From a virus: a stretch of DNA of 64,000 bases. Where the stretch lies: IMG/VR virus record IMGVR_UViG_3300045988_061615. One strand, given 5' to 3'. The position numbers and the translations under genes are program-made. The stretch's first letter is position 1. Each line of letters starts with the position of its first letter. Shown piece by piece: positions 12,804-55,562 of this stretch. Below the pieces are notes generated by a model. It saw nothing but the letters and a program-made list of their open reading frames with translations, had not been told where the DNA came from and searched no databases.

Positions 12804-12804
12804 G

Positions 12805-41208: not shown

Positions 41209-42331
41209 TGGTATATTCATCTCTGATGGCATGGCTTCGGTCATAGCCATCATTATTGGAGTACTAACTTGTGTATTCTGGTATAAATGCAGTAAAGAAA
41301 AGTAAAATAACAATAAAATAACTAATCTACATGAAAGTAATCAAAACTAATATTAAGGCTGAAACTGTAGAAATTAATCCTAGAGAAGCGGAAGCTCTCA
41401 GAGACACATTCCAGGACAATAGACGTACTTATAACGATAATATACGCAAGTAAGAATATGTATCACCTATGTGTCTGGAACATTTGAATAAACCTACGTA
41501 ATGGGTGCTAGTTTAATAGCTAGCACCGTTTATCCATAATTAAGGCAGGTTCTCCGCGAGGGGAATAAGTGAAAGCACAAGTGCAATCATCTAAAAGTTT
41601 AGTGATTGATTACTGTGAGTCGAGTAGCCCAAGACCTGTGCTCACTTGGTATAAGAAGAAGCGTTTAATAGTGTACATAAAAGCGTGGATACTCAGAGCA
41701 CCAAGTATGGTTGTAGGTCTCAAAAGTCTAAAGTTTATATAATGACTTTAAATCGTGAGCTTAACACCAGGTCATGTTTGAACATTAAGCTTTAAACATT
41801 TAGTCAGCTTATCTGACATTTTAAAAAACTCAATATAAAAGATATTGACTAATGTGTGTAACTAGTTGTCTTTAACCGCACGCCGAAGTGTTTCTACCGT
41901 AGTAGCAACAATCTCTACTAATGATGTAGATTATAGACAATGAACCACACTAGCTCTAAGAGTATTAGTTTCAGTATTTCCAAGACGTTGAGGACGCCAG
42001 TTTCTTATCTTTCTGTATATCTAATTATGTACCCGAACTACTGCTGATCCGGTTTTAGTGAATATCAGAGTAATACTAATGAATCAGTACTGATTACGCT
42101 AATGTAATTTCATGGCTTATTAAGCTTACTAATTATTTATAGCCAAATGATAAGTTTTAGGTGTAAAATGCAATCTTCTGCATAATTATTCATTTTAGAT
42201 GGATATAATTCCATACCCCCCCCGTGAAGGGGTCGGCATCATGACTAAGCCTTTACGTGGCGATGCTATAAGTAACCTATTAATAGGTGAAACTAATTGG
42301 TCATATTGTTTAATTTAATAACTAATCGACA

Positions 42332-42625
42332 ATGAAAATTGAAAAGAACAAATTAGTGAATCGTGCTCAAGTGTTGAACCAAGACATTCAGTTAGGTATT
42401 ATTGCCTATTCTGTAGCTGAAATGGCATCTATAATCGAACAGACAGATGCTAAGCTCCACAAGGGTGAAATCACCGAAGAGCAGCACAAAACTATAGTTG
42501 ATGATTGTACTGAATACATCAAGTCAGCTAAAGAGATGTGTGACGAATCCAAAATGGATTGGAGTGTATGTATCTTGTTATCACGTACTAATCTTGATAA
42601 GTATGTGGAAAGCAAGATTGACTAA
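42332..42625 (+). CDS. hypothetical protein
   Basis: 97-aa ORF. Confidence 0.45.
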   Translation: MKIEKNKLVNRAQVLNQDIQLGIIAYSVAEMASIIEQTDAKLHKGEITEEQHKTIVDDCTEYIKSAKEMCDESKMDWSVCILLSRTNLDKYVESKID

Positions 42626-42751
42626 GGCATTGTTCCTACTAATGGTAGGATACTTAGGCTGGCAATGTACTAGAGCATCCTTATGGATTCCTCTGGTATT
42701 ATGTGTGTTATTAGGCATTTTTATTATTCAACTTAAAAATAAGGATTTAGC

Positions 42752-43192
42752 ATGAAAAAGATTGACGCAATTTTGAATGGAACTAAAGAACAGTACCCAT
42801 CATTAATAAGCAAGTTATCTAATATTCTCGAACCGTTTGCCCTGCTTGCAGTAGGCAAAGCACCCGTTTACGTTGGACGTGTAGTTGAAGAACTCGGAGT
42901 AAAGCAATGCAAGGACTGCGGAGCTTTCATATTTAACATTGATGGCAATGATGTTGCCCATGTTGATGTTAAAAGAATGGAAGCATCAGTATTCGGTGGT
43001 GAGACATTCTCAATCTCTACAGAAGATGCCGAGTCGGTAACTAATGTACTGGCTGCATTTGAGAACCATAAAGAAGAGGATGATGAGAATCCTGTTAAGG
43101 AAATTCTTGAGAATATGCCTAAGGAACTCAAATCTCTTCTTGGAGCAGCTATCATGGTATCTAAACTCCGTAGAAAGGGAGAAGACAACTAA
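42752..43192 (+). CDS. hypothetical protein
   Basis: 146-aa ORF. Confidence 0.5.
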   Translation: MKKIDAILNGTKEQYPSLISKLSNILEPFALLAVGKAPVYVGRVVEELGVKQCKDCGAFIFNIDGNDVAHVDVKRMEASVFGGETFSISTEDAESVTNVLAAFENHKEEDDENPVKEILENMPKELKSLLGAAIMVSKLRRKGEDN

Positions 43193-43451
43193 AGAAGGTT
43201 TTTGAAGACAAATATCAAGGGGTTAGTCCACTGTGAAGTGAGCTAGCTCCGCCAACTTTTAAAGCTAATAATGAAATGGATATACTGAAGCAATTAGAAG
43301 AAGGCAAACCTTTCTCTGGTAGAAATGGTGCTTTTACTGGAAGAGTTGAACCGCAATCAATAAGTGGAGATACTCTGAATGTCATATGTGATAAGGATGG
43401 CACAAGATGGCATGAGAATTGGGAATTACAGCATGTTATTTGGGCATTTGA

Positions 43452-43874
43452 ATGTGGAGATTATTACTTCTTATGATTAAGTGTGATATATCTAAATGCC
43501 ATGCGAGTTGTTGTTATAACGCTCCATTGCCTAAGAAATACATATTTGCATTAAAGAATAGGATTGTTACTCCAGTTAAGGAGATTCTCGTTATTGATGA
43601 TGAGAATATGAAAGGTGAGGTAATGTGTTATCCAATCACAGACCATAACCCTGATAAGAACAAATGTCCATTCTTAACTGAGAATTGTAGATGTAATATT
43701 TATGATAGAAGACCACCAATATGTAAGAAGTTTGGTAATGGTACAGAACCATTATTAACTTGCTCATTCTTAGTTCCAGAAGAACAAAGAGAGTCTGTAT
43801 TGGCTGGTTATAAGTCTGCTATTAATAACCTAACATCTCCAACTGCTTGGGAACTTGCTAAAAAGTATAAGTAA
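43452..43874 (+). CDS. Cys-rich hypothetical protein (possible metal-binding)
   Basis: 140-aa ORF containing CHASCC, C..C and CRC clusters. Confidence 0.45.
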   Translation: MWRLLLLMIKCDISKCHASCCYNAPLPKKYIFALKNRIVTPVKEILVIDDENMKGEVMCYPITDHNPDKNKCPFLTENCRCNIYDRRPPICKKFGNGTEPLLTCSFLVPEEQRESVLAGYKSAINNLTSPTAWELAKKYK

Positions 43875-44235
43875 TATGCCAAAGGATTATGCGCTAAGAA
43901 AGTTACATTCTAAGGAGAAGATTATCTTCTGTGGATGTGATGCTATAAGTGGTTTATTAATGCATTACCTACTTGATGAATTGTTTGGCAGAGGTGAGTA
44001 TAAGATACTTCATCACTATGATTTACGATTACAACAAGAATGGGAATGGACTATTGATGAGCCAATACCTGACAAAGATATTATTAAGGAATGGTTCTTC
44101 TGTGAACCTGAGAGAATAATAACTACTTGTTGGGATTACGAGAGAACTCTCAAAGCTGTAGAAGATGCGCAGATTACAAATGTGCGTATCTATGAGTTTT
44201 GTAAGTATAAACACATAACTGATTTACCATTCTAA
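43855..44235 (+). CDS. hypothetical protein
   Basis: 126-aa ORF. Confidence 0.45.
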   Translation: MLKSISNMPKDYALRKLHSKEKIIFCGCDAISGLLMHYLLDELFGRGEYKILHHYDLRLQQEWEWTIDEPIPDKDIIKEWFFCEPERIITTCWDYERTLKAVEDAQITNVRIYEFCKYKHITDLPF

Positions 44236-44790
44236 TGGTGAATACTCATAGTGCAGGAGTACAACTGCACTAACTGGGCTTGTATGGTTTTGACAGGCGA
44301 TTACGAGTTAGTAAGACGTGTAGAGTTGGCACCAACTCTTTAATAATGATGCACAATTTTAAGTGGAAACACTGAAGTAAGAATGGCAGCCTAAGCTGCT
44401 GGCTTATCTATTAATTTAGCTCTAAGTCGGGTTAATGGGAGAGACCTAGAAACAGAAGAGGTGTGGGAAGAAGCGTATAGGGCAGCCCACTTAACTTGAA
44501 CGCCAAAGGTTAGTAGAGCTGAAATCTCCGTCACCTAGCTATGGGTTACAAATAGACGTTCTCCAACGTAAATGGAGTGGTGGAGCGACCGTTCGGTCAA
44601 GCCCAGTTTGGTAGTTTGTGAACAACTAAGTCGTAGCCTTACGAGGAGACGTAATTGGTGAATTAACACTCAGCTTCTTAGTAAAACTACCTACATGCTG
44701 AACTCAACAGCTGATGTAATAAAATAGAGATACACGTAATCTTATTATTTAGAGTTGTGAAGACCGCGGTTCGAGTCCGCGATGGTCCAC
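44236..44790 (+). ncRNA. ORF-free structured region ending in an orphan tRNA-like T-arm and acceptor 3' half (candidate tmRNA, interrupted tRNA or att core; unresolved)
   Basis: No ORF of 60 aa or more is present. The 3' end (44765-44789) is CGCGG-TTCGAGT-CCGCG-ATGGTCC-A, i.e. a tRNA T-arm plus acceptor strand. No matching 5' acceptor lies within 90 nt upstream. Confidence 0.3.
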
Positions 44791-44817
44791 TATTATTAAC
44801 GTTTAAATATCAATTTT

Positions 44818-45171
44818 ATGGGATTATTTATTATTGCAGTGATTGTTTTACTTATTTGTGTATGTCTTTCGCGAGTAGGGTCTGAAGACCTAAGAGGAGT
44901 TGCAGTGGCAGTTGAGGTTGTATTCTCAATAGCAACAGTTGGGGCAGCGATTTCATTACCATTCGCTATTACAAGGAATATTCAAATTATTGGCAAGCAC
45001 GCAGTGCTCAAAGAAACATTGGAGGCTACTGATAGGAAGAATTACTATCTTATATCTAGTGATATCTTAAGGCTTAATTATACCATCATGAATCATAGGA
45101 ACTTTGTAGACAACTTCTGGATTGGGATATGGTATGATAAGGACGTAGCTAAATTGGAACTATTAAAATGA
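44818..45171 (+). CDS. membrane protein
   Basis: 117-aa ORF with two N-terminal hydrophobic helices. Confidence 0.45.
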   Translation: MGLFIIAVIVLLICVCLSRVGSEDLRGVAVAVEVVFSIATVGAAISLPFAITRNIQIIGKHAVLKETLEATDRKNYYLISSDILRLNYTIMNHRNFVDNFWIGIWYDKDVAKLELLK

Positions 45172-45449
45172 AAGCAAGGTTATTAAAGAAACTTCGCAAG
45201 GAGTCAAAGAAGCTGAAATTAATAAGAGGTGAGGATTATCAATACATAGTTACTGATAGTCCTCATGACATATTAAGACCAAAGCTTGATACTTACTACA
45301 GTGGCACATACTACTGTGGTCAAGAATTATTATTTGACGAAGATGTAATTGCATGGTTACATCAATGCAGACGTAATTGGATTCTGTCCGAGGTTAAACG
45401 AATGCGTGTACATCTACGTAAATCTCGAATTAGAATATATAAAGAGTAA
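45168..45449 (+). CDS. hypothetical protein
   Basis: 93-aa basic ORF. Confidence 0.4.
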   Translation: MKARLLKKLRKESKKLKLIRGEDYQYIVTDSPHDILRPKLDTYYSGTYYCGQELLFDEDVIAWLHQCRRNWILSEVKRMRVHLRKSRIRIYKE

Positions 45450-45475
45450 TTGTTTCACTAAAAGTTATTGAAATT

Positions 45476-45973
45476 ATGGGAAAGAGGTCAATATCCGACG
45501 ATGACATCGTTCGGATTTTTAACACGGTAAAGGCAATGAATCCTGGGCCTTTTAAGATTACAGATGTAGTCAGGGATTTAAAGAAGAATGGCTTCCCAAG
45601 GCCAGAGAACTTCATGGCTGTTTTGCGTAAGCAGGGAGTGATTGAACCTGACGGTGCTATCTATACTAAAGGATTTATGTGGAAAGAACATGGCCCTTTG
45701 TATAAGACTAGAGTCATTGAATTGATAACTATCAGTAGGAAAGAAATGGCTAAGATACAGAGAGATGCATATGCTAAGAGAATGGCTATTAAAGCTGGCA
45801 CTTATGTAGCACCTCCCAAACCTAAGCCACAAGCTGAAATGGAAGCTGTTACAGAAGCGGAAGAAGACAAACATCTGATTCCTATTACACAAGCTGAAAT
45901 GGAAGCAATCAAATTCCTGAAATCAAGAGGTTACAGAATCACTAAATTAATAACAGTTGAACAGATAGTATGA
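45476..45973 (+). CDS. hypothetical protein
   Basis: 165-aa ORF. Confidence 0.5.
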   Translation: MGKRSISDDDIVRIFNTVKAMNPGPFKITDVVRDLKKNGFPRPENFMAVLRKQGVIEPDGAIYTKGFMWKEHGPLYKTRVIELITISRKEMAKIQRDAYAKRMAIKAGTYVAPPKPKPQAEMEAVTEAEEDKHLIPITQAEMEAIKFLKSRGYRITKLITVEQIV

Positions 45974-46665
45974 AGTTTACAGTACAAGGGAACACGCCAT
46001 TCAGTGCACACATTTGCCAATATCTATATGATTTGGAAAGCAACTTTGCTAAGGAGAAATTATCATTGCCACTTAGTCAGATTATAGCTCATATCTTATA
46101 TGGGACTAAGAGAATCAGACTTGGTAATGAAGCTATTCCGTCCGAAGCAATCACTATTTTGGAAGAATGTATTGAAGCTAATCAGCCAATACCAATTAAT
46201 TGTATCTTCGGTAGTTCTGAATCGGAGAAAGACTATGTTGATGTTGCTGAATTTCAATCTCTTCAAACGTTGAAGGATATAAGCAGGAGAGTTGCTAAAT
46301 TCTACTATCCAGGCTTGAACATAAGACTAGATGTAGTAGGCGATTCAAAATATGTTAGTAAGGTGATGAGACTAGCAACAGTCCTAGGTGGTTTTACCAT
46401 AGGCACACACCAATCAGCTATTAATGTATCATTCGCTCACTACCGGCCAGCACACTATTATTATAAGTCTATTCCGTCTCGAAACATTCTACGAGGTGGA
46501 TATGTTCCAGCTTGGGATGGTAGAGGTTATTTATACTTAGAATCCCCACATGATATTGTGAGTATGATAACTACAGCTGACAATCCTGACATTCTTTCGA
46601 CGACTGTGGTGTTAGAAGCAAACGAAGAGACGGTAGACCTTCGTGTGGACTATCTAATACCGTAA
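45970..46665 (+). CDS. hypothetical protein
   Basis: 231-aa ORF with an overlapping start. Confidence 0.5.
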   Translation: MKFTVQGNTPFSAHICQYLYDLESNFAKEKLSLPLSQIIAHILYGTKRIRLGNEAIPSEAITILEECIEANQPIPINCIFGSSESEKDYVDVAEFQSLQTLKDISRRVAKFYYPGLNIRLDVVGDSKYVSKVMRLATVLGGFTIGTHQSAINVSFAHYRPAHYYYKSIPSRNILRGGYVPAWDGRGYLYLESPHDIVSMITTADNPDILSTTVVLEANEETVDLRVDYLIP

Positions 46666-47043
46666 ATCCACTATTGACGAATGGTGGTAGCAAAACTTGG
46701 TCTGAAGAACCAGTAGACATATTCCGGAGTATGTCTATGACTTAAAGGCTATATCAAAGAGTTGAAACCTGTATCTATTCGAACAGTAGAAGTTCACCTG
46801 ATTAAGCATCAGAAAACAGTAGTGCAAATCTACTATAGCTATTGTGTAAGAGAGAATCTACACGGTCTGCATTATATAATCAGCATGCAGATAGGTCACC
46901 AAGCAAACCTCTTTCCTGCCTGGTCAAGTGTGCATTACGGTCTGTAAGTGGCGAGCGGGTTAACGTATGTCCGATTGCCGTAATGCCGCTTGTTTATTGT
47001 TTAGAATAAAGAAAGACTCTCATAACAATAAATTTAACAAGAG

Positions 47044-48738
47044 ATGGAAATGAAAGGAGCACAAAGGCCAAGGAGGCCTTACCCTAATGCCGCACGTCAA
47101 AGGCGGGATGAGAATAAACCTAAGTTTGTGGATACTAATCAGTTATTCATAGACCAGTTTGTTAATCTTAAGAAATGTCTTCAGCCACGTACCTACGTGC
47201 AAGTGGCTAAAGATATGTATCCTTTATGGAAAGCTAATCCATTACTATGTACCAAGTTTACTGCATATACGAGGATGATAACTCGTAAATGTAGAATAAC
47301 TACCCCGGAAGGAGTTATACAGCTTGATACACAGCAAGGAGAAGGTTTGAAGAATGAAGGTATAATGAGGATGCTGTGGTTGGCAATCTATCACAAACCC
47401 ACATTCCATGCCAACATTGCTTATTTTGCAGCAGCTGGATGCTGGAAAGATTTCATTACTATGATGGCTTTAGATGTTCAACTCCATGGCTTTAAGCACA
47501 GATTGGATTGGGACTTCTTCAAGAAAGTCATATTCGCAGGTCTTGCCAACGGTCAGACATGTGATTTAGTAAAGAAGTATCTTCCTCGTGTTCGTTCCAG
47601 TGTTGCATGTAAGACAGATGAGGCAAAAGCACGTAACACAGTAGCCAAATTCTTGGCGGAAGGCCTTTATGGTAAACCTAAGGACGAAGGAGACTATTCA
47701 ACCTATCGTAAATATAGGAAGATGAAGAATAGCGGGAAAGCAGCCCAATGGCAGCAGTTAATCAGTCAAAAGAAATTCTTGGAAATTGATTTTGACACTG
47801 TTACTGGAAAGGCGCTGGCACAGCTAGTAGGCTCTAAATTCCTCAAACATCAAGGTCTTAAAGAGAAGTATCAGAACTGGTTGAAGAACCGTAAGAAGCC
47901 CTCTAATAGCGGATTTCTACATACTCTGTTCAAACCATACGGATTGGATAAAATTGCCGAAGAGATTCCAGAATTTATGGAAACTTCTATTAATGCAAGT
48001 TTCAATGTATTTGTTGATAATGCTAAACGCAATAGAGTAGCTCCGTTGTTGGTAGTAAGAGATATAAGTCATTCTGCTAATGGTGAGATAGAGAATAGCG
48101 AAACATCTGCTTACAGTTTGGGTAAAGCATATGCTTTATATCATTCTGAATTACTTCCTACAATATTCAAGAACTCCTATGCCGTGTTAGAGGATAACAT
48201 GGTTCTACGTAAGTTCAAAGGTCAGAATGTCATTGAGAAATGGAAATCTGACAAAGAAGAAGCATTATGCCAGAATCCTTCTATTATTAATATAGCAGAA
48301 ATGCTGTGTAAAATGAAAGAAGATTATGGTGTGGATGAAGGAGAGTTCCCTAGAGGCTGTGTGGTAATTACTAACCATACATATTTTACCAAGTTGAACA
48401 ACCAAGCATTCGTGGAATTTAAGCAAAGACTGCTTAAAGCAAATTTCAGTAAGGAATTTGTAAGAGCATTCAAAGTTATCATTTGGAGAGTTCCTTTAGC
48501 ATATAAGGGAAGACCTAATGTGGCTTTGGTTCCAGGAGTGTCAAATTGCTTCTTAGTAAATGGACTTAATAATTCAACATCCTCATTTATTACTGGAGAG
48601 AAGAGGTTCCAGGTGCCTAAAACCACTAGAGACATCTTTAAGCATGCTATGAATCAAGAGTTGCTTAATATGATGATTCTAGAGAAGGATGTTGTCAAGA
48701 AGAATGCAAGCGTGCAGAAGAAGCCTGTGAAGGCCTAA
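47044..48738 (+). CDS. hypothetical protein (564 aa)
   Basis: Long uninterrupted ORF with a basic N-terminus. Confidence 0.55.
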   Translation: MEMKGAQRPRRPYPNAARQRRDENKPKFVDTNQLFIDQFVNLKKCLQPRTYVQVAKDMYPLWKANPLLCTKFTAYTRMITRKCRITTPEGVIQLDTQQGEGLKNEGIMRMLWLAIYHKPTFHANIAYFAAAGCWKDFITMMALDVQLHGFKHRLDWDFFKKVIFAGLANGQTCDLVKKYLPRVRSSVACKTDEAKARNTVAKFLAEGLYGKPKDEGDYSTYRKYRKMKNSGKAAQWQQLISQKKFLEIDFDTVTGKALAQLVGSKFLKHQGLKEKYQNWLKNRKKPSNSGFLHTLFKPYGLDKIAEEIPEFMETSINASFNVFVDNAKRNRVAPLLVVRDISHSANGEIENSETSAYSLGKAYALYHSELLPTIFKNSYAVLEDNMVLRKFKGQNVIEKWKSDKEEALCQNPSIINIAEMLCKMKEDYGVDEGEFPRGCVVITNHTYFTKLNNQAFVEFKQRLLKANFSKEFVRAFKVIIWRVPLAYKGRPNVALVPGVSNCFLVNGLNNSTSSFITGEKRFQVPKTTRDIFKHAMNQELLNMMILEKDVVKKNASVQKKPVKA

Positions 48739-48901: not shown

Positions 48902-48975
48902 AGAGATATAGTTCAGTGGTAGAACAGCTAAAGTCAATCTTTAGAAGAACATCAGTTCGAATCTGGTTATCTCTA
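48902..48975 (+). tRNA. noncanonical class-I tRNA, anticodon CAA (identity unclear)
   Basis: Acceptor AGAGATA/TATCTCT. D-arm GTTC-AGTGGTA-GAAC. Anticodon arm CTAAA-GTCAATC-TTTAG. T-arm ATCAG-TTCGAAT-CTGGT. 2 nt at position 26 and a 6-nt variable loop. Confidence 0.45.
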
Positions 48976-49078
48976 CACCATTTTATTAATATGATTCTTT
49001 CAACATATGCAGTGTCATTTCTATCTCGACTCATAGTCATTATTACGAGTTAAAGTATCTGCAATTGTTGAATAACTA

Positions 49079-49114
49079 CTAAGCTCATCGGTTCGAGAGA
49101 ATATGTGAGCTTAG
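49079..49114 (+). repeat. conserved-loop hairpin, copy 1 (loop TCGGTTCGAGAGAATATG)
   Basis: 9-bp stem CTAAGCTCA/TGAGCTTAG. Member of a four-copy family with the same loop consensus and different stems. Confidence 0.55.
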
Positions 49115-49225
49115 TTTAATACCGAGCAAACTTCTATCGTATTTAATACATATTAACTTTTACATGTGGGGAAGATTCATTACCTTTGCACTCACAATTC
49201 ACAGTTAATATGGATTGTGTGATTC

Positions 49226-49309
49226 GGGCACGTAACCGGTAATTGGTAGCCGCGTAGACTGTAAATCTACTCCTTAATTGGACTGGAGGTTCGAGTCCTC
49301 CCGGGCCCA
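49226..49309 (+). tRNA. tRNA-Tyr (GTA), type II
   Basis: Acceptor GGGCACG/CGGGCCC with one A.G mismatch. Anticodon arm GTAGA-CTGTAAA-TCTAC. Long variable arm. T-arm GGAGG-TTCGAGT-CCTCC. Confidence 0.6.
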
Positions 49310-49362
49310 CTCACACTGCGATAATTAAATACAATATCTGTTGAGGTCAAACTCGACAAACC

Positions 49363-49390
49363 CTTCTATGGTTCGAGAGAATAGTAGAAG
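49363..49390 (+). repeat. conserved-loop hairpin, copy 2 (loop TGGTTCGAGAGAATAG)
   Basis: 6-bp stem CTTCTA/TAGAAG. Confidence 0.55.
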
Positions 49391-49396
49391 TAAACT

Positions 49397-49468
49397 GCGG
49401 GATTCGTATAATGGTTATTATAACAGCCTTCCAAGCTGAAGATGACAGTTCAATTCTGTTATCCCGCT
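49397..49468 (+). tRNA. tRNA-Gly (TCC)
   Basis: Acceptor GCGGGAT/ATCCCGC. Anticodon loop CTTCCAA. T-arm GACAG-TTCAATT-CTGTT. Confidence 0.7.
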
Positions 49469-51044
49469 CATTATTAATAATAGATTAGATTATGAAAGAG
49501 ACATCATTTAAGGCAGGTGTTATTGGTGGATTATGTGGAGTATTTACCTTCTTGGCATTATTTGCAACCACAAGTAAAGCATCAATTAATGAGTCTGCTG
49601 CTACTAATGGAGATTATAAAATCAACAGAGTGCAGTATGAATTTATTAACGAACTAACCATTTATAAGGTATCAGGTCCTGGTATTCCAGGTATTAAGTA
49701 TGTGCTTAGAGATTCCGAGAAAGGTGGTTTATGTGTATTAAATCCATGAGTGAACACTGTCTTATTAAGAAGAATACTCCAGAACTTCGTAAGAAACTAG
49801 AGGATGCTGGGTTAAGTGTGTGTATATGTACTACATTTGAGGATGCTGATTGGCTTAGTTGCTGGGGTTCTCATATGTCATATGATGTACATGGTGTGTA
49901 TCCGGATGACGTGGACGATTTGTCTAAAGAAGCCTATCTGGAGATGTATCTCAAGGAAACGAATCCGATTATATGTGAATCGGATGATGAGTTTATTAAC
50001 ATGTGTAAACAAATTAAAGGGAAATGATTATGCGGTAGATTACTTACAAGCCACCATAAGATAGTTGATTATTAATTAAGGCAATTTATTTATTAACTTA
50101 TTAACAATTAACTATCATGGCAACAATTAAACAATTTAAACAAGAAATCGCGAATTTAGTAAAAGCACAGAAAGCAGCTAAGAATATTAATGACTGCTCA
50201 TCAGTTTATTACAACAGAGGAAGATTACATGCAATGTATGTAGCTTATTACATATTAAAGCATAAACTAATCGGAGAAGCTATGGATGAGTATCTCGCTA
50301 AAGTTATCAAAGAATGGAAATCACTTGAAACTCAAGGTTGGTGTGGTTATTCTAAGATGTATAGTGGAGAGAAGTATTTCCGAGAAAGAGTTGATTCACT
50401 GATTGATACATATTCTGATGAAGAGATTGTATGTGCTGATAGACCAGAAGCTTGATGCAGTTTATGGTTGTGTACAAGGAGGTCATGCAGTAGCGCAGTG
50501 GTTATTAGAACATCCTAAGCAGGATTGGAATAATAACTACTTAATCTACTTATATGCTGACTTGGACAAATGGAAAGTAAGACTGGACTTAGTTAATAAG
50601 GACTATTCTTCATTCTATGAACCAGACCTTGGCAATCAATTAACAGCAATCGCATTACAAGATGACGGTCGCATGTTCAAGAAACTTAAATTAGTAAGAG
50701 AATGATATACAAACGAGATTATTATGTCAGTATAGGTGACGAACAGGTAATTATTACTAAGAACGCCATTATGCCATATAATGTAATGGAGCCTAGAAAC
50801 AAATACTTTTATAAAGTTGGAGATAAGGTTTTAACTCCGTTCGGGATACAAACTATTAAGGACATTATAAAGGATTATAGTTCTCAACCAGGTCATGAAT
50901 GGATTATCCTAGTAGAGGAGAATGGCAATCAGTATAAGCCGTGTGAGTTAATTGGCATAGTAGTCAAGGAACTTACACTTGAACAGTGGAATCAAATTAT
51001 CGAATAGTTGATGAGTTGTGGGTAATCTCGTAAAACCCTCTGTC

Positions 51045-51116
51045 GCCCCATTACTTCAGTGGTAGAAGAGCAAATTCTAAACTTGTATGGCGTTGGTTCG
51101 AGTCCAACATGGGGCA
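51045..51116 (+). tRNA. suppressor tRNA, anticodon CTA (reads UAG)
   Basis: Acceptor GCCCCAT/ATGGGGC. D-arm CTTC-AGTGGTA-GAAG. Anticodon arm GCAAA-TTCTAAA-CTTGT. T-arm GTTGG-TTCGAGT-CCAAC. Confidence 0.7.
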
Positions 51117-51118
51117 CT

Positions 51119-51197
51119 TGCGGAGGAATGAAACGGATATATAAATCATACTAGTCTCATAAGCTAGTTATATTGGGTTCGACTCCCATCTCCGCAA
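51119..51197 (+). tRNA. tRNA-Met/Ile2 (CAT) with enlarged D-loop
   Basis: Acceptor TGCGGAG/CTCCGCA. D-stem ATGA/TCAT with a 14-nt loop. Anticodon arm CTAGT-CTCATAA-GCTAG. T-loop TTCGACT. Confidence 0.5.
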
Positions 51198-51297
51198 CTA
51201 CAATCATTGTACATTTGCATTTTCAGAATGTTAAGAAGACACACAGCAATTTCCTGTATGTTGGCATAAGTAAATGAATCTATTGTCTTCTGATGAT

Positions 51298-51370
51298 GGG
51301 TGTATAACTCAGGTGGTAGAGTAACACGCTGATAACGTGTAAGTCCTTGGTTCAAGTCCAAGTACACCCA
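51298..51370 (+). tRNA. tRNA-Ile (GAT)
   Basis: Acceptor GGGTGTA/TACACCC. D-arm ACTC-AGGTGGTA-GAGT. Anticodon arm ACACG-CTGATAA-CGTGT. T-arm CTTGG-TTCAAGT-CCAAG. Confidence 0.85.
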
Positions 51371-51472
51371 CAATACAACAATTTTCAATAGCTTTGAATA
51401 AGAAGTCTTACGGCACGAAAGAAAGTGTTTCATATTTTATGATTTTAATTAAACTAAGAGACTTCTGTAGTC

Positions 51473-51545
51473 CGGGATGTAGTTCAGTAGATAGAATGCG
51501 TGGTTTGGGACCACGAGGTCGCTGGTTTGAATCCAGTCATCCCGA
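51473..51545 (+). tRNA. tRNA-Pro (TGG)
   Basis: Acceptor CGGGATG/CATCCCG. Anticodon arm CGTGG-TTTGGGA-CCACG. T-arm GCTGG-TTTGAAT-CCAGT. Confidence 0.85.
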
Positions 51546-51600
51546 CCCCCTGTAGCATCCAAGAGAGGATGCTGATAATCCCATAATAGCAAATATGGAC

Positions 51601-51630
51601 AACTACTCAGTTCGTGAGAATAGAGTAGTT
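51601..51630 (+). repeat. conserved-loop hairpin, copy 3 (loop AGTTCGTGAGAATA)
   Basis: 8-bp stem AACTACTC/GAGTAGTT. Confidence 0.55.
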
Positions 51631-51770
51631 TTAATAAGAACCATAATTAACACAATAATATATAGTTTCACTAAACAATCATCAAATCAACTCAACAATC
51701 AACCCAACAACTTTTAATTTATGATTTGATTAACCTGTTTCATAGTTAAGCCCATAAGTCGTATTGATAT

Positions 51771-51842
51771 GTGGGCTTGCCCGAGAGGTTTAGGGGCTGG
51801 TCTGCAAAACCAGTTAGGACGGTTCGATTCCGTCAGCCCACT
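51771..51842 (+). tRNA. tRNA-Cys (GCA)
   Basis: Acceptor GTGGGCT/AGCCCAC. Anticodon arm CTGGT-CTGCAAA-ACCAG. T-arm GACGG-TTCGATT-CCGTC. Confidence 0.8.
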
Positions 51843-51925
51843 CTCGATTTAGTGAAACATAAGAAGGCGTACAGCACTAATCATTGTACAGTTTACATGT
51901 TTTTGATAACGCGCCTTCTGTGGAT

Positions 51926-51997
51926 GATTCCGGAGCATGTATGGATATGCTATAGACTTTTAATCTATAGAACAGGGTTCAAGTCCCTGCGGAATCA
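51926..51997 (+). tRNA. tRNA-Lys (TTT)
   Basis: Acceptor GATTCCG/CGGAATC. D-arm GCAT..ATGC. Anticodon arm ATAGA-CTTTTAA-TCTAT. T-arm CAGGG-TTCAAGT-CCCTG. Confidence 0.85.
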
Positions 51998-52037
51998 CAT
52001 ATGTACTAAGATTGTACATGATGTCAAAGAACGAGTT

Positions 52038-52070
52038 TAACCACTCAGTCTGTGAAGATAGAGTGGTTTA
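52038..52070 (+). repeat. conserved-loop hairpin, copy 4 (loop AGTCTGTGAAGATA)
   Basis: 10-bp stem TAAACCACTC/GAGTGGTTTA. Confidence 0.5.
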
Positions 52071-52102
52071 TTTAGATTATTAATTTAAAATCAGATACAT
52101 TT

Positions 52103-52246
52103 ATGAGTAAGATTATTGGAGTATTGTTAGTAATTGGTTCTGTTATAGGAACAGTTGCTTGTATAGCTCAACATCAATTTAATCCATTCACTGGAGTATT
52201 GTTGTTGCTAGTATTTTGCTTTGGTTGCTGTTTAGCGATGAGCTAG
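52103..52246 (+). CDS. micro-ORF encoding a 47-aa two-transmembrane-helix peptide
   Basis: MSKIIGVLLVIGSVIGTVACIAQHQFNPFTGVLLLLVFCFGCCLAMS. Lies between tRNA genes. Confidence 0.3.
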   Translation: MSKIIGVLLVIGSVIGTVACIAQHQFNPFTGVLLLLVFCFGCCLAMS

Positions 52247-52422
52247 ATTATTTATTTATTGACTAAAACTGATGTATTATGAGACTATTTAAGTTAATTA
52301 AGAAAGCAGTTCGTTGGTATTTTAGAATAGCTGCAAATAGCTATGCTTGGACACCAACAGGAGTAGTTCCTTACCATAGGGATTAACTCCGATGCAATCG
52401 GGATAGGTCAATTAAACATTAT

Positions 52423-52494
52423 GGCAAGTTAGCTCAGTGGTAGAGCAGTTGGCTGTTAACCAATTGGTCGCAGGTTCGAGTCCTGCACTTGCCG
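52423..52494 (+). tRNA. tRNA-Asn (GTT)
   Basis: Acceptor GGCAAGT/ACTTGCC. D-arm GCTC-AGTGGTA-GAGC. Anticodon arm GTTGG-CTGTTAA-CCAAT. T-arm GCAGG-TTCGAGT-CCTGC. Confidence 0.85.
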
Positions 52495-52608
52495 CATTAT
52501 TAACATTAAATTATAAGATTATGCATAGTTTTGGTGCTTACATTGTGGGAGCTATAGTGCTAGTAGTATTGTATTACATCTTTAAAGATTCCACAATCTA
52601 AAATTGAT

Positions 52609-52683
52609 GCGTCCTTAGCTCAATCGGTAGAGCCCCTGTCTCCAAAACTGGGTGTGTTGCATGTTCGAGTCGTGCAGGGCGTG
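52609..52683 (+). tRNA. tRNA-Trp (CCA)
   Basis: Acceptor GCGTCCT/AGGGCGT with two G.U pairs. Anticodon loop CTCCAAA with one T.T mismatch in the stem. T-arm GCATG-TTCGAGT-CGTGC. 7-nt variable loop. Confidence 0.6.
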
Positions 52684-52729
52684 CATGGTAGAAAATAGAT
52701 AGGTTATCTATTAATTAGAATTACTAAAT

Positions 52730-53137
52730 GTGAAGTGTTCCGTATGTGGAAAGCAATTAAGTGCTGGTAATCAATCTGGATTATGTCAAGAATGTTACCG
52801 TAAGAAAGTAAACGAAGATAAGATTGCAAAGTGGAAAGAGACTGGAGATACTGGATGTAAAGTTTCAACTACGCTTAGAAATTGTATCAGAGATTATATT
52901 GCAGATAAACAGGAACACAAGTGTGCTATATGTGGTATAGATAGTGTATGGCAGGGCAAGCCCCTGAACTTTATACTTGACCATATAAACGGAGATGCTT
53001 CTAACAACTGGGAACATAATTTACGATTAATATGTCCTAACTGTGATTCACAGTTGGACACTTATAAGTCTAAGAATAAGAACAGTGCTAGAACACATAG
53101 AAAGAAATATCAAGGAAGTATGCCGGAGCCAGGTTGA
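52730..53137 (+). CDS. HNH endonuclease with N-terminal zinc ribbon; 3' end reads into tRNA-Ser
   Basis: 135-aa ORF. LDHINGDASNNWEHNLRLICPNCDS is a classic HNH core. The last 8 codons are encoded by the 5' part of tRNA-Ser(TGA). Confidence 0.65.
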   Translation: MKCSVCGKQLSAGNQSGLCQECYRKKVNEDKIAKWKETGDTGCKVSTTLRNCIRDYIADKQEHKCAICGIDSVWQGKPLNFILDHINGDASNNWEHNLRLICPNCDSQLDTYKSKNKNSARTHRKKYQGSMPEPG

Positions 53138-53200
53138 ACGGAACGGACTTGAAATCCGTAGGCCCTTCGGGGTCCGGGGGTTCGAATCCCTCTGCTTCCT
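53114..53200 (+). tRNA. tRNA-Ser (TGA), type II
   Basis: Acceptor GGAAGTA/TGCTTCC. D-arm carries the ATGCCGGAG signature. Anticodon arm ACGGA-CTTGAAA-TCCGT. Long variable arm GGCCC..GGGTC. T-arm GGGGG-TTCGAAT-CCCTC. Confidence 0.8.
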
Positions 53201-53219
53201 CAACTAATTTGAATGTACT

Positions 53220-53543
53220 ATGAAGTTTAAAGTGAAATTAAGGAGAGTGTCTACGTTAAGTAGAAACCAAATTTGTAGAGTGTACGAATCTGGAATGCGA
53301 GAAATGGTAAAACGTCCCACATTAGTTAGAGTCCTTCTTAAGGATTACAAAACTAAAGAAGATGTTAATGCTTTACTTGAGCAATTAAGCGAAGCAAGTA
53401 GAGCCGCTGAACAGGATTTATATGCAGAGTACCCAAAGTTGCCCAGAAAGGCTAAGAAGGAACTCAAGAAAAGGTTGAATGCAGTCAATAATGCCTATTG
53501 TGTTGGTATTACTTTATTGCTGGCTGAATCAGATGGCTTATAA
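53220..53543 (+). CDS. hypothetical protein
   Basis: 107-aa ORF. Confidence 0.45.
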   Translation: MKFKVKLRRVSTLSRNQICRVYESGMREMVKRPTLVRVLLKDYKTKEDVNALLEQLSEASRAAEQDLYAEYPKLPRKAKKELKKRLNAVNNAYCVGITLLLAESDGL

Positions 53544-53826
53544 ATTCATACCTACTCGATATGTAGACAATAACTCCAAGTTGTTGGCAAGAATTTACTT
53601 AAATAGACAAAATTCTCGCCGAGTGGTATTACGAGGATACTATGATTTTGATAAAGAGAAGTTTTACATTTCATCTATATCAAAGAAGGCTAATACAAGG
53701 TCTGTGATGAAGTTCTTACTAAAGACTATAGAATGTAGTAGATTTCATTGGGAGTATTCAGGTAACTATGATGATAAGCTCTATCAAGAGTGGTTAAAGG
53801 AACATGCAGTATTTAATAGATTGTAA
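53479..53826 (+). CDS. hypothetical protein
   Basis: 115-aa ORF. The true start is probably an internal ATG, because the ORF overlaps the previous gene. Confidence 0.4.
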   Translation: MQSIMPIVLVLLYCWLNQMAYKFIPTRYVDNNSKLLARIYLNRQNSRRVVLRGYYDFDKEKFYISSISKKANTRSVMKFLLKTIECSRFHWEYSGNYDDKLYQEWLKEHAVFNRL

Positions 53827-53919
53827 AATTATCGTATGAAAGGAATTAATTTAACAGGATTGGACATGAAGAAGTTTGTTGGAACCGGCTACAACCCGTC
53901 TCAAGACATTATTAACACT

Positions 53920-54226
53920 AATGGTAGAGACGATGGAAGAACTAAGAACGGAGAGACTGAAGGATTCACTAATCCAAAGAAACAAAAGGTGGAGGAACCT
54001 AAAGAAAGACCAGAAGTATATTACTAGGATTAAACTCCACGCTGCCTACTGGTATAATCCAGATAAAACGGCAAGAGGTAGACATTGGACAGAATTATAT
54101 AATTCTAAATATACGTTTGCCTATAAAACAACCAGCACTCCTTGTAATTGTCCTATATGTAAAGGAGAACGCTATAATAGGAGACAGTTTAAGAAAGAGA
54201 CAAGAGAATTACTTAATCTAGAATAA
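53920..54226 (+). CDS. basic zinc-ribbon protein (CNCPICKG)
   Basis: Frame of track ORF 53876..54226, taken from the first ATG. Overlaps the alternative-frame ORF 53836..54027, so one of the two is probably spurious. Confidence 0.35.
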
Positions 54227-54296
54227 CTGAATGGGTAATATAAGAAGGCATCAGCACTTTTACTGTGTCATGTAGTTCAATTTGCCTTCTGATGAT

Positions 54297-54369
<73 letters not shown>

Positions 54370-54375
54370 CTAATA

Positions 54376-54687
54376 GTGGTTAACATGATTGGGTTCGTAG
54401 AGTATTTAATTAGTAAAGGGTATAAACCTTATCGCAAGGTAATGTCTAAGAAGGGTTCTACATATGTAGAGGATTCTAATATAGGATTTTATTCTTCTAT
54501 GTCAGAGCATATTGACCTTCGTCTTATTAAAGGTAAGAAGGAAGTAGTGTATGGATTACATGAGAGAGGACATTCTCCTACTCTTATATATCCTAGACCT
54601 AAATGGGTTAAATCTGATGCAGATATGGATAGACTATTTCTGAATTATTCATTTGAAGAAATTGCTGAAATGATAGGTTTAAAATAG
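54376..54687 (+). CDS. hypothetical protein
   Basis: 103-aa ORF. Confidence 0.45.
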   Translation: MVNMIGFVEYLISKGYKPYRKVMSKKGSTYVEDSNIGFYSSMSEHIDLRLIKGKKEVVYGLHERGHSPTLIYPRPKWVKSDADMDRLFLNYSFEEIAEMIGLK

Positions 54688-54874
54688 TGCACAATGAGGA
54701 GGGTATGCATGTAGAGTTCTATAACATGCTATGGGTTGGAGTCGGAGACTGACAAGAACAGTTGGGGCATGACTAAGTAATTGTGCATTTTATAGGTTAT
54801 CAGACCGGTAGGTAACCTTCCGTAATCAGTCGGACGTTGGGAGCTGATAGCCCTACGATAGTGTGGCTAAATAT

Positions 54875-54947: not shown

Positions 54948-54975
54948 CAGATTGTTGAACTTAAATTGAAAGGTA

Positions 54976-55554: not shown

Positions 55555-55562
55555 CTCAATAT

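What the first reader, a model, noticed from the sequence alone, without database searches (positions are those of the whole stretch)
44236..44790. 560-nt ORF-free structured region ending in an orphan tRNA-like T-arm and acceptor
No ORF of 60 aa or more is found in 44236-44817, although the flanks are densely coding.

The 3' end (44765-44789) is CGCGG-TTCGAGT-CCGCG followed by ATGGTCC-A. That is a perfect tRNA T-arm plus a 3' acceptor strand and discriminator. No complementary 5' acceptor or D-arm lies within the preceding 90 nt.

The interior has many GC-rich helices. It also contains a short frame ending ..GCA GCC TAA (..AA-stop), which is reminiscent of tmRNA tags. I could not pair the 3' acceptor convincingly with a 5' GGGG-type end.

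Three candidate explanations:
- a phage tmRNA or tmRNA-like element;
- a tRNA whose 5' part is far upstream, i.e. an intron-containing tRNA;
- an attP core carrying the 3' end of a host tRNA.
Basis: seen in the sequence. Interest (0 to 1): 0.6.

Follow-up and report, generated by a model that had tools for sequence, protein, structure and literature searches.

The report
Phage-encoded tmRNA gene, mosaic copy
The ORF-free stretch is a complete ribosome-rescue RNA (tmRNA) gene carried by a crAss-like gut phage; it belongs to a widespread family of long phage tmRNAs that ARAGORN does not report, and in this copy the two ends come from different lineages and no longer pair fully.

Summary
Window 44236-44817 has no ORF of 60 aa or more, and 44765-44789 is a T-arm, a 3' acceptor strand and discriminator A.

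The T-arm is not orphan. Its 5' partner, GGGCUUG, lies 507 nt upstream at 44276. Rfam's tmRNA model (RF00023) matches 44276-44792 end to end at 50.3 bits (cut-off 47).

I found 91 full-length relatives in gut-phage contigs, 64 of them distinct and 500-601 nt long. In 62 of the 64 the two ends form a perfect 7-bp acceptor with an invariant G3.U70, in five covarying versions. Across the acceptor, T-stem and helix 2, 97% of cells pair, against 81% in shuffles and 37-47% when partners are slid.

The tag frame (GGA 44365 to TAA 44394, GNTEVRMAA) is kept in all 23 variants. All end in [R/K]MAA-stop, with synonymous changes and a 3-nt indel.

The attP and intron-tRNA readings fail for the window, although one relative (L070) does carry a group I intron in its T-loop.

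The window's copy is a mosaic. Its 5' end is identical to one lineage and its 3' end to another, which costs two acceptor pairs and three helix-2 pairs. I could not tell natural recombination from assembly chimerism.

Phage tmRNAs are already known, so this is a new member of a known kind.

The parts
44276..44789 (+). tmRNA (ssrA) gene, 514 nt up to discriminator A. CCA is not encoded; the next bases are CTA.
   Evidence: RF00023 matches 44276-44792 over model positions 1-374 of 374, 50.3 bits (GA 47). Homologues were aligned.
44276..44282 (+). Acceptor 5' strand GGGCUUG. It pairs with 44782-44788 as G-C, G-C, G.U, C-G, U.G, then U.U and G.A mismatches.
   Evidence: In 62 of 64 distinct relatives all 7 pairs form, and G3.U70 is invariant.
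44283..44293 (+). D-loop analogue UAUGGUUUUGA. It aligns to the Rfam consensus cuGGaUUCGA(C); the C of GAC at 44294 begins helix 2a.
   Evidence: Alignment; TGG..TTGA is conserved in alignment A1.
44294..44321 (+). Helix 2, 5' strand: H2a 44294-44302, H2b 44307-44315, H2c 44316-44321.
   Evidence: H2a has 7 of 9 pairs with changes on both sides, H2b 5 of 9, H2c is 100% paired. In the window the outer three H2a pairs are lost.
44322..44352 (+). Pseudoknot 1. Stem 1 is AGAGUU 44322-44327 with AACUCU 44334-44339. Stem 2 is GGCAC 44329-44333 with GAUGC 44348-44352, in which four positions pair and C44332/A44349 is a mismatch.
   Evidence: stem 1 is 100% paired. Stem 2 is paired in 26 of 26 copies that carry this module, with 5 compensatory UA-to-CG changes.
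44365..44394 (+). Tag reading frame GGA AAC ACU GAA GUA AGA AUG GCA GCC UAA = GNTEVRMAA-stop. GGA is the inferred resume codon.
   Evidence: All 23 tag variants end in [R/K]MAA, stop at TAA or TGA (never TAG), and show synonymous changes and an in-frame 3-nt indel.
44385..44400 (+). Helix 5 hairpin GGCAGC-CUAA-GCUGCU, with the stop codon in its loop.
   Evidence: 100% paired but invariant. Also recovered in the MFE fold.
44429..44529 (+). Candidate pseudoknot 2: GGGUUAA 44429-44435 with UUAACUU 44491-44497, crossing GGAGA 44438-44442 with UCUCC 44525-44529.
   Evidence: helices are 97% and 83% paired. Read by eye in alignment A1, L048 has GGAAGG with CCUUCC and the L019 type has GGAGAA with UUCUCC. 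Inferred, not proven.
44533..44577 (+). Two small candidate pseudoknots: ACCU/GGGU crossing CUAU/AUAG at 44533-44555, and the invariant ACGUU/AACGU crossing CUCC/GGAG at 44556-44577.
   Evidence: The first is specific to one module (A-U becomes G-C in L001-type copies). The second never varies, partly because it was my search pattern. Both are weakly supported.
44610..44691 (+). Long-range helix GGUAGUUU 44610-44617 with AAACUACC 44684-44691, enclosing a hairpin module (44618-44683) that is swapped between lineages.
   Evidence: 97.5% paired, with G-C, G.U and A-U at one position. Module replacement is visible in alignment A1.
44692..44718 (+). Conserved hairpin UACAUGCUG-AACUCAA-CAGCUGAUGUA.
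   Evidence: 95.6% paired, 3 pairs with changes on both sides.
44732..44761 (+). Helix 2, 3' strand: H2c 44732-44737, H2b 44741-44749, H2a 44753-44761.
44765..44781 (+). T-arm CGCGG-UUCGAGU-CCGCG.
   Evidence: T-stem is 100% paired, and 4 of 5 pairs have changes on both sides across relatives.
44782..44789 (+). Acceptor 3' strand AUGGUCC plus discriminator A.
44251..44270 (+). Hairpin GTGCAG-GAGTACAA-CTGCAC, 5 nt upstream of the mature 5' end. Role unknown; it may be a precursor or processing element, or the end of the upstream transcript.
   Evidence: Present with a different, still complementary stem (GGCATGA..TCATGCC) in L003-type relatives, and identical in L085-L094.

Best explanation
This is a one-piece tmRNA (ssrA) gene encoded by a crAss-like phage of a probable Bacteroidota host. 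It lies about 4 kb upstream of the phage's 19-gene tRNA island, on the same strand.

Inferred mechanism, by analogy with bacterial trans-translation:
1. The RNA is transcribed, its 5' end is cut at G44276 by host RNase P, and its 3' end is trimmed after A44789.
2. CCA is added by the host enzyme. None of the phage's 17 tRNA genes matched by Rfam encodes CCA either.
3. G3.U70 plus A73 make it a substrate for host alanyl-tRNA synthetase.
4. With host SmpB and EF-Tu it enters ribosomes stalled on broken or stop-less mRNAs.
5. The ribosome switches to the internal frame at GGA (44365), adds (A)GNTEVRMAA and terminates at UAA (44392-44394).
6. The ribosome is recycled and the product is marked by a C-terminal ..MAA degron.

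A phage that destroys host mRNA and floods the cell with its own transcripts would gain from extra ribosome-rescue capacity.

What is shown: family membership, the TLD and helix-2 structure, and conservation of the tag frame.

What is inferred: expression, processing, charging, tagging, and the benefit to the phage.

The window's copy is a patchwork. Its 5' end is of the L088 type and its 3' end of the L084 type, so 2 of 7 acceptor pairs and 3 helix-2a pairs are lost. It may work less well than its relatives or not at all.
For: Rfam:
- RF00023 full-length hit above the curated cut-off in the window.
- Stronger hits in relatives: L001 68.8 bits, L015 60.0, L010 and L011 58.3.

Family size and TLD:
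- 99 loci including the window carry the conserved core. 91 are full length and 64 are distinct, at 500-601 nt.
- 62 of 64 have a fully paired 7-bp acceptor with G3.U70 and discriminator A.
- The five acceptor versions are GGGCCUA/UAGGUCC, GGGCCAU/AUGGUCC, GGGCUUG/CAAGUCC, GGGCCUG/CAGGUCC and GGGCUUG/CAGGUCC.

Formal pair count on acceptor, T-stem and helix 2:
- 97.0% of cells paired against 81.0% in shuffles (0 of 500 shuffles reach it) and 37-47% when partners are slid.
- 20 of 36 pairs change on both sides.

Lineages whose tmRNA body and downstream genes are near-identical (L071 type and L084 type) carry different 5' and 3' TLD ends, and each pair of ends is mutually matched. The two ends are therefore kept compatible across about 450 nt.

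Tag frame:
- All 23 variants are in frame and end in [R/K]MAA-stop.
- Synonymous changes: GGA/GGC, GCA/GCT, GCC/GCG/GCT, GAT/GAC, TAC/TAT.
- R/K replacement and a 3-nt deletion in L048.
- The stop codon sits in the helix 5 loop.

Other points:
- PK1 stem 2 shows compensatory changes.
- Neither the tRNA genes nor the tmRNA encode CCA, and each is followed by C.
- Phage context: terminase, portal and tail genes; terminase about 30% identical to crAss-like phages of Bacteroides.
- Phage tmRNAs have precedent (PMC4131195; PMC7162821).
Against: - The window copy has U6.U67 and G7.A66 mismatches and loses three H2a pairs, for 6 non-standard cells against 0-2 in 28 of the other 32 distinct sequences (3-5 in L065, L048 and L037).
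- Its TLD plus helix-2 mini-construct is the least stable of 33: -31.4 kcal/mol against a mean of -38.5, sd 2.1.
- ARAGORN reports no tmRNA in the window or in any of the first 15 relative loci tested, L001-L015.
- The Rfam score is only 3 bits above the cut-off, and about 250 nt of the middle are unaligned to the model.
- The fold energy is not better than shuffles, z = -0.44.
- No SmpB homologue was found in the window.
- No sigma-70-like promoter lies upstream on the + strand. This is uninformative for Bacteroidota.
- There are no expression data.
- The PK2-PK4 region is only partly resolved.
Confidence: 0.9

Rival explanations
1. The window's copy belongs to the tmRNA family but is not functional as it stands. 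Either it is a recent natural recombinant whose mismatched ends cripple the tRNA-like domain, or the contig is an assembly chimera joined inside the conserved tmRNA body.
For: - 42001-44275 and tmRNA nt 1 to about 133 are 100% identical to L088, whose own tmRNA is GGGCUUG/CAAGUCC and fully matched.
- 44790-47000 is 99.3% identical to L084, whose tmRNA is GGGCCAU/AUGGUCC and fully matched.
- Only 2 of 64 distinct copies have unmatched ends.
- This TLD is the least stable of 33.
- None of the places shown that carry the exact flanking proteins has the window's left-plus-right gene combination.
Against: - The copy is a patchwork of at least three lineage types with a short unique segment. A simple two-strain join would not give that, and modular exchange is the rule in this family.
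- Five acceptor pairs, including G3.U70, remain, as do the T-arm, PK1, the tag frame and helix 5.
- From general knowledge, AlaRS charges acceptor microhelices with only a few pairs.
- No read-level data were available.
Confidence: 0.3
2. The RNA acts as a decoy rather than a rescuer. It soaks up host SmpB, AlaRS or EF-Tu to shut down host trans-translation, as proposed for TLD-only molecules such as that of mycobacteriophage DS6A.
For: - Hudson et al. 2014 note that a TLD-only molecule strongly inhibits tmRNA, perhaps by titrating SmpB (PMC4131195).
- The window copy has a weakened acceptor.
- No SmpB gene was seen in the window.
Against: - A decoy would not need a tag frame, yet the frame, its [R/K]MAA end, the stop codon and PK1 are conserved with synonymous changes in all 23 variants.
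- Relatives keep perfect acceptors with the alanine identity pair.
Confidence: 0.06
3. The 3' end is an attP core carrying the 3' end of a host tRNA or tmRNA gene, and the rest of the gap is unrelated.
For: The 3' 22-mer, extending to 27 nt (CCGCGGTTCGAGTCCGCGATGGTCCAC), is identical to the 3' end of a tRNA-Lys(CTT) gene in one Bacillota MAG from goat caecum.
Against: - That is 1 hit among 185,579 species genomes. It lies in a GC-rich, unrelated context and in the wrong phylum for a crAss-like phage.
- T-arm plus acceptor sequences occupy a small sequence space.
- The upstream 490 nt match tmRNA end to end.
- Relatives with this same 3' end have the perfectly complementary 5' strand GGGCCAU.
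Confidence: 0.01
4. It is a tRNA gene split by a very long intron, with the 5' half about 500 nt upstream.
For: - The 5' and 3' acceptor strands are about 500 nt apart.
- A relative (L070) really has an 866-nt group I intron in the T-loop.
Against: - No intron family reaches E<=1 in 44100-44900.
- There is no anticodon arm.
- The intervening sequence holds PK1, a conserved tag frame and helix 5.
- In L070 the intron interrupts a tmRNA, not a tRNA.
Confidence: 0.01

Closest known systems
Bacterial one-piece tmRNA (ssrA, Rfam RF00023)
   Same: - tRNA-like domain formed by the two ends, with G3.U70, discriminator A and a GGUUCGAnUCC T-arm
- long helix 2
- PK1 just before the resume codon
- a tag of 9-10 codons starting with Gly or Ala and ending ..AA
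- stop codon in the helix 5 loop
- further pseudoknots after the tag
   Different: - 500-601 nt, against a 374-position Rfam model. About 250 nt of the window copy are not aligned to it.
- C4-G69 in place of the model's G-C.
- The tag ends in [R/K]MAA, not the ..LAA/..YALAA type I recall for bacteria.
- The post-tag region is built from modules that are exchanged between lineages.
- CCA is not encoded.
- It is encoded by a phage.
Known phage tmRNAs: Bxz1-like mycobacteriophages, Bacillus phage G (PMC4131195) and huge phages (PMC7162821)
   Same: A complete ssrA gene in a phage genome, together with many tRNA genes.
   Different: - Those were found with standard detectors (ARAGORN in PMC7162821). 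This family is not reported by ARAGORN.
- The hosts and phage group differ: here crAss-like phages in contigs of about 90-190 kb, two of them labelled human faecal samples.
- Full-text searches of the held library found no paper that reports a tmRNA in crAss-like phages. The collection is incomplete, so this is only absence from it.
TLD-only RNA of mycobacteriophage DS6A (PMC4131195)
   Same: A phage-borne RNA with a tmRNA-type tRNA-like domain.
   Different: The window RNA keeps the whole mRNA-like and pseudoknot part.
tmRNA genes interrupted by a group I intron in the T-loop (Clostridium botulinum; recalled from memory, not checked here)
   Same: Relative L070 has an 866-nt group I intron between GGUU and CGAG of the T-loop.
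   Different: The window's gene is uninterrupted.

Membership tests
tmRNA (RF00023) | Score at or above the curated Rfam gathering threshold over the full model | tested here: met
   50.3 bits against 47, model positions 1-374 of 374, window 44276-44792. Relatives score up to 68.8 bits.
tmRNA (RF00023) | 5' and 3' ends pair into a 7-bp acceptor stem with G3.U70 and an unpaired discriminator | tested here: inconclusive
   Met in the family: 62 of 64 distinct copies have 7 of 7 pairs, G3.U70 is invariant, and three positions covary. The window forms only 5 of 7 pairs (U.U and G.A at 6:67 and 7:66) but keeps G3.U70 and A73.
tmRNA (RF00023) | T-arm with GGUUCGAnUCC, and no anticodon arm | tested here: met
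   44765-44781. The T-stem is 100% paired, with 4 of 5 pairs changed on both sides.
tmRNA (RF00023) | Long helix 2 joining the TLD to the rest of the RNA | tested here: met
   H2a, H2b and H2c are 92-100% paired, with 13 pairs changed on both sides. The window lacks the outer three H2a pairs.
tmRNA (RF00023) | Pseudoknot PK1 immediately upstream of the resume codon | tested here: met
   Stem 1 is 100% paired. Stem 2 is paired in 26 of 26 copies of this module, with 5 compensatory changes. The other PK1 module was not resolved.
tmRNA (RF00023) | Short internal reading frame with no start codon, ending in a hydrophobic ..AA tag, with the stop codon in or near helix 5 | tested here: met
   GNTEVRMAA-UAA at 44365-44394. 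The frame and the [R/K]MAA end are conserved in 23 variants, with synonymous changes and a 3-nt indel. The resume codon is inferred from the Rfam alignment, not mapped.
tmRNA (RF00023) | Pseudoknots PK2-PK4 between the tag and the helix 2 3' strand | tested here: inconclusive
   Several crossing helices are compatible and partly covary, but the modules differ between lineages and the structure was derived from the window itself. Overall 88% of cells are paired, against 32-43% when slid.
tmRNA (RF00023) | Expressed, alanylated, bound by SmpB, and tags stalled polypeptides | not testable with these tools
   No transcript, biochemical or proteomic data are available.
attP core or tRNA 3' fragment | Only the last 25-45 nt match a host tRNA or tmRNA gene, with no functional RNA upstream | tested here: not met
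   The upstream 490 nt are tmRNA. The single genome match is a coincidental Bacillota tRNA-Lys.
Group I or group II intron-containing tRNA | An intron model hit between the tRNA halves, and an anticodon arm | tested here: not met
   No intron hit at E<=1 in 44100-44900.
crAss-like phages (context) | Terminase, portal and other core genes homologous to crAss-like phages | tested here: inconclusive
   The terminase is 29-31% identical over about 82% of its length to crAss-like phages (E 9e-53) and 59% identical to an unclassified gut phage. Portal and tail PHROGs matched. No phylogeny was made.

The most novel reading that the evidence does not exclude
These crAss-like phages carry their own expanded lineage of tmRNA. 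Its tag (..[R/K]MAA) and its swappable, mutually matched TLD modules would be tuned to particular hosts' AlaRS, SmpB and proteases. On this reading the phage does not just add rescue capacity but redirects ribosome rescue and the fate of tagged proteins during infection. TLD swaps would then track host switching. Mismatched recombinants like this one would be the visible cost of the rampant module exchange.
Probability: 0.15. Interest if true: 0.7.

Novelty: new member of a known kind. Interest (0 to 1): 0.42.

Why it matters
crAss-like phages are described as the most abundant viruses of the human gut (PMC7886860, PMC6235969). Several phage annotation pipelines detect tmRNA with ARAGORN (for example PMC13503771 and PMC7162821).

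ARAGORN reported none in the window or in the 15 relative loci I tested. The gene is nevertheless present in at least 98 other public contigs, with strong purifying constraint on its tRNA-like domain and its tag frame. So a translation-rescue function of these phages is probably being missed systematically.

The family also offers a natural experiment on tmRNA structure: matched TLD ends swapped as a pair, interchangeable pseudoknot modules, and an intron-bearing member.

It also gives a concrete peptide signature, ..[R/K]MAA, to look for in gut metaproteomes. The kind of element itself, a phage tmRNA, is already known.

Tried and rejected
- ARAGORN on the window and on 15 loci found no tmRNA. 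I treat this as a detector limit, because Rfam and the comparative data agree with each other.
- The energy z-score is uninformative at -0.44.
- The attP test by scanning species genomes gave one coincidental tRNA-Lys hit.
- Intron models gave nothing in the window.
- A naive all-against-all column scan for helices was too noisy because G.U pairs are tolerated. I replaced it with named helices.
- The SmpB search in the window found nothing.
- The sigma-70 promoter scan found nothing upstream on the + strand. Bacteroidota promoters are not covered by that scan.
- I searched for an independent assembly with the window's exact chimeric configuration. There were 0 hits for the window's 5' 43-mer in IMG/VR. 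There were 0 hits in JGI metagenomes both for the paired-end pattern and for the 5' end alone, so that negative is uninformative.
- Look-ups by exact flanking proteins showed only the two parental gene arrangements.
- I tested the idea that the tmRNA compensates for amber suppression. The window has a CUA-anticodon tRNA, but its large ORFs are intact under the standard code and show no sign of in-frame TAG use. I therefore do not rest the mechanism on recoding.
- The 564-aa neighbour has no match by sequence in the PDB.
Full report
OBSERVATION

The stretch 44236-44817 holds only ORFs of 30-47 aa, between genes ending at 44235 and starting at 44818. The frame ..GCA GCC TAA is at 44386-44394.

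MFE is -137.9 kcal/mol against -135.3 +/- 5.9 for dinucleotide shuffles, z = -0.44.

WHAT IT IS

Rfam's tmRNA model RF00023 matches 44276-44792 on the + strand over all 374 model positions, at 50.3 bits (gathering score 47) and E 7e-17 for the whole window. The alignment places these elements:
- the 5' end at GGGCUUG-UAUGGUUUUGAC
- PK1
- the conserved UAAnUGCnAAC region on UAAGUGGAAAC
- the 3' GACCGCGGUUCGAGUCCGCGAUGGUCCA

About 250 nt of the middle are left unaligned. No intron family reaches E<=1. ARAGORN finds 19 tRNAs at 48.9-61.6 kb, including one with a CUA anticodon, but no tmRNA.

RELATIVES

- The 3' 22-mer occurs in 13 IMG/VR contigs.
- A conserved interior 24-mer occurs in 71.
- Look-ups by flanking proteins added 27 loci from ENA and Logan assemblies.

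In total 99 loci including the window carry the core. Of these, 91 copies are full length and 64 are distinct, at 500-601 nt up to the discriminator. Rfam scores some relatives higher: L001 68.8 bits, L015 60.0, L010 and L011 58.3. ARAGORN reports no tmRNA in any of the 15 loci tested.

TRNA-LIKE DOMAIN

In 62 of 64 distinct copies the first seven and the last seven nucleotides before the discriminator form seven standard pairs, with G3.U70 invariant. There are five versions:
- GGGCCUA/UAGGUCC
- GGGCCAU/AUGGUCC
- GGGCUUG/CAAGUCC
- GGGCCUG/CAGGUCC
- GGGCUUG/CAGGUCC

I made an alignment of 33 distinct mini-constructs holding the acceptor, the helix 2 strands and the T-arm (A2). On it, the named structure of 36 pairs gave these results:
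- 97.0% of cells paired, against 81.0 +/- 0.7% in shuffles (0 of 500 shuffles reach the observed value)
- 37-47% paired when the 3' partners are slid by 1-3 columns
- 20 pairs with changes on both sides

By helix, the pairs with changes on both sides are acceptor 3 of 7, H2a 7 of 9, H2b 5 of 9 and T-stem 4 of 5.

One observation is especially telling. L071-type and L084-type phages are near-identical to each other in the tmRNA body and in the downstream genes. Yet they have different 5' and 3' TLD ends, and each pair of ends is mutually matched. The two ends, about 450 nt apart, are kept compatible.

TAG

Counting back from the stop in the helix 5 loop, the window encodes GGA AAC ACU GAA GUA AGA AUG GCA GCC UAA, which is GNTEVRMAA (44365-44394).

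Across the copies surveyed there are 23 nucleotide variants of this frame. The peptides include GNTTYRMAA, AEIAPVRMAA, ATYSEVRMAA, AEIDYNRMAA, AERSDV/YRMAA, GETEGFRMAA, ANTSVRMAA, GNTRVKMAA and GNTEVKMAA.

Features of the variants:
- All end in [R/K]MAA followed by TAA. One variant stops at TGA and none at TAG.
- Synonymous changes are GGA/GGC, GCA/GCT, GCC/GCG/GCT, GAT/GAC and TAC/TAT.
- The one length change within a module is 3 nt.

This is the signature of a translated frame. The resume codon itself is inferred from the Rfam alignment, not mapped.

OTHER STRUCTURE

- PK1 stem 1 and helix 5 are invariant and fully paired.
- PK1 stem 2 pairs in all 26 copies that carry this module, with 5 compensatory changes.

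After the tag I could name:
- a probable PK2 (GGGUUAA/UUAACUU crossing GGAGA/UCUCC, with compensatory variants seen by eye in L048 and L019-type copies in alignment A1)
- two small candidate knots
- a long-range helix (97.5% paired) enclosing a hairpin module that is replaced wholesale between lineages
- a conserved hairpin (95.6% paired)

These helices were derived from the window sequence. Non-homologous modules blur the counts (88% paired overall, 32-43% when slid). I regard the PK2-PK4 region as only partly resolved. The extra length over a standard tmRNA comes from this modular region (alignment A1).

CONTEXT

The window is phage DNA:
- Terminase, portal and tail proteins and a reverse transcriptase (PHROG 'Reverse transcriptase'; a DGR type is my guess) are present.
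- The terminase is 29-31% identical to crAss-like phages of Bacteroides and 59% identical to an unclassified human-gut phage.
- Related contigs are mostly 90-190 kb.
- The tmRNA gene lies upstream of a RAGATH-34 RNA (46668-46775) and of the tRNA island, all on the + strand.
- None of the 17 tRNA genes matched by Rfam encodes CCA. Each is followed by C, as is the tmRNA gene. This points to a common maturation route with CCA added by the host; that step is inferred.
- No SmpB homologue was detected in the window (weak test).
- The window's large ORFs are intact under the standard code, so I do not tie the tmRNA to stop-codon recoding.

THE WINDOW'S COPY IS A MOSAIC

- Left side: 42001-44275 is 100.000% identical to L088 (ENA ERZ1314844 NODE_12, 188 kb), and so is the tmRNA up to about 44408. 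L088's own tmRNA is GGGCUUG/CAAGUCC and fully matched.
- Right side: 44790-47000 is 99.3% identical to L084 (ERZ24911547 NODE_34, 184.7 kb). L084's own tmRNA is GGGCCAU/AUGGUCC and fully matched.

In 40-nt steps the window's gene switches type as follows:
- 44236-44395: L088 type
- 44396-44435: L071/L018 type
- 44436-44515: L071/L084 type
- 44516-44555: a short unique stretch
- 44636-44675: L088 type
- 44756-44830: L084 type

The result is a 5' strand from one TLD type and a 3' strand from another. Pairs 6:67 (U.U) and 7:66 (G.A) fail, and the outer three H2a pairs fail as well. That makes 6 non-standard cells, against 0-2 in 28 of the other 32 distinct sequences and 3-5 in L065, L048 and L037. 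The TLD plus helix-2 mini-construct is the least stable of 33, at -31.4 against -38.5 +/- 2.1 kcal/mol.

None of the places shown that carry the exact flanking proteins has the window's left-plus-right arrangement. Pattern scans for it were empty or uninformative.

The multi-lineage patchwork and the general modularity of the family favour natural recombination. Assembly chimerism inside a conserved gene cannot be excluded without reads. Whether the RNA still works is open. G3.U70, A73, four other acceptor pairs, the T-arm, PK1 and the tag frame are all intact.

REJECTED READINGS

- attP core. The only exact match of the 3' 22-mer in one genome per species (185,579 species) is the 3' end of a normal tRNA-Lys(CTT) in a GC-rich Bacillota MAG. 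That is a coincidence in a small sequence space, and relatives with this 3' end have the complementary 5' strand.
- Intron-tRNA. There is no intron hit and no anticodon arm, and the 'intron' would contain a conserved tag frame.
- Decoy RNA (compare the DS6A TLD-only RNA, PMC4131195). This is unlikely, because the mRNA-like part is under coding-type constraint.

COMPARISON WITH WHAT IS KNOWN

Phage tmRNAs are established. Examples are Bxz1-like mycobacteriophages and Bacillus phage G (PMC4131195), and huge phages, where ARAGORN was the detector (PMC7162821).

In the held literature I found no report of a tmRNA in crAss-like phages. The term appears there only in methods sections or reference lists. 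That collection is incomplete, so this is absence from it, not proof of absence.

I therefore file this as a new member of a known kind, with three noteworthy traits: its length and modular post-tag region, the [R/K]MAA tag, and the fact that ARAGORN does not report it.

VERDICT

The other two are wrong for this window.
- Confidence that this is a tmRNA-family gene: about 0.9.
- Confidence that this particular copy is fully functional: about even.
- Interest is moderate at 0.42.

Noticed in passing
L070 7750-8615 (IMGVR_UViG_3300045988_023864): A relative's tmRNA gene is split in the T-loop (..GACCGCGGTT | 866 nt | CGAGTCCGCGATGGTCCA) by a group I intron. RF00028 scores 94.4 bits, E 2e-24. The 5' exon ends in U and the insert ends in G. 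A 194-aa ORF on the opposite strand inside the insert has no Pfam hit.
   Followed up: partly
window 46668-46775 and 47044-48738: A RAGATH-34 RNA (119 bits) sits directly upstream of a 564-aa protein that matches PHROG 850 'RNA-binding protein' and, weakly, DUF2828. This could be an RNA-protein pair; a Ro/TROVE-like relation is my guess only. RAGATH-34 is also found 1.5-2 kb downstream of the tmRNA in seven relatives. The protein has no match by sequence in the PDB.
   Followed up: partly
window 48902-61563: An island of 19 tRNA genes on the + strand, including one with a CUA (amber-reading) anticodon at 51045-51117. None of the 17 matched by Rfam encodes CCA and all are followed by C. The window's large ORFs nevertheless show no in-frame TAG use.
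   Followed up: partly
window 44251-44270: The hairpin GTGCAG-GAGTACAA-CTGCAC lies 5 nt before the tmRNA 5' end. L003-type relatives have a different but still complementary stem (GGCATGA..TCATGCC) at the same place. It may be a precursor or processing element, or a terminator.
   Followed up: no
window 17973-19208 (-) with 19541-21571 and 7066-15690 (-): A reverse transcriptase (PHROG 1423, E 1e-112) lies next to tail and tail-fibre genes. I read this arrangement as that of a diversity-generating retroelement. Template and variable repeats were not searched.
   Followed up: no
L047 7934-7960: In this relative the acceptor 3' strand is replaced straight after the T-stem by unrelated sequence (..CCCGT|TGGCGTTACTATG..), followed by a terminator-like hairpin. 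It is probably a 3'-truncated tmRNA gene, and it is the only other copy with unmatched ends.
   Followed up: partly
L024 about 588 onward and L051 (3' flank of the tmRNA): In some relatives a tRNA gene starts 7 nt after the tmRNA discriminator (..TAGGTCCACATAATA|GGGCTATAGCTCA..). This suggests co-transcription and shared processing of the tmRNA and tRNAs.
   Followed up: no
L009 285-358: A RAGATH-1 hammerhead ribozyme (82.6 bits) lies in a related contig about 6 kb upstream of its tmRNA.
   Followed up: no
alignment A1, columns 446-505 (L030, L026, L009 and others): A module of about 30 nt (GGTTTGGAAGCGTCAGCTTCTGAACCTTTAA) is present in 0, 1 or 2 tandem copies in different tmRNA copies. It accounts for part of the 500-601 nt length range.
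   Followed up: no
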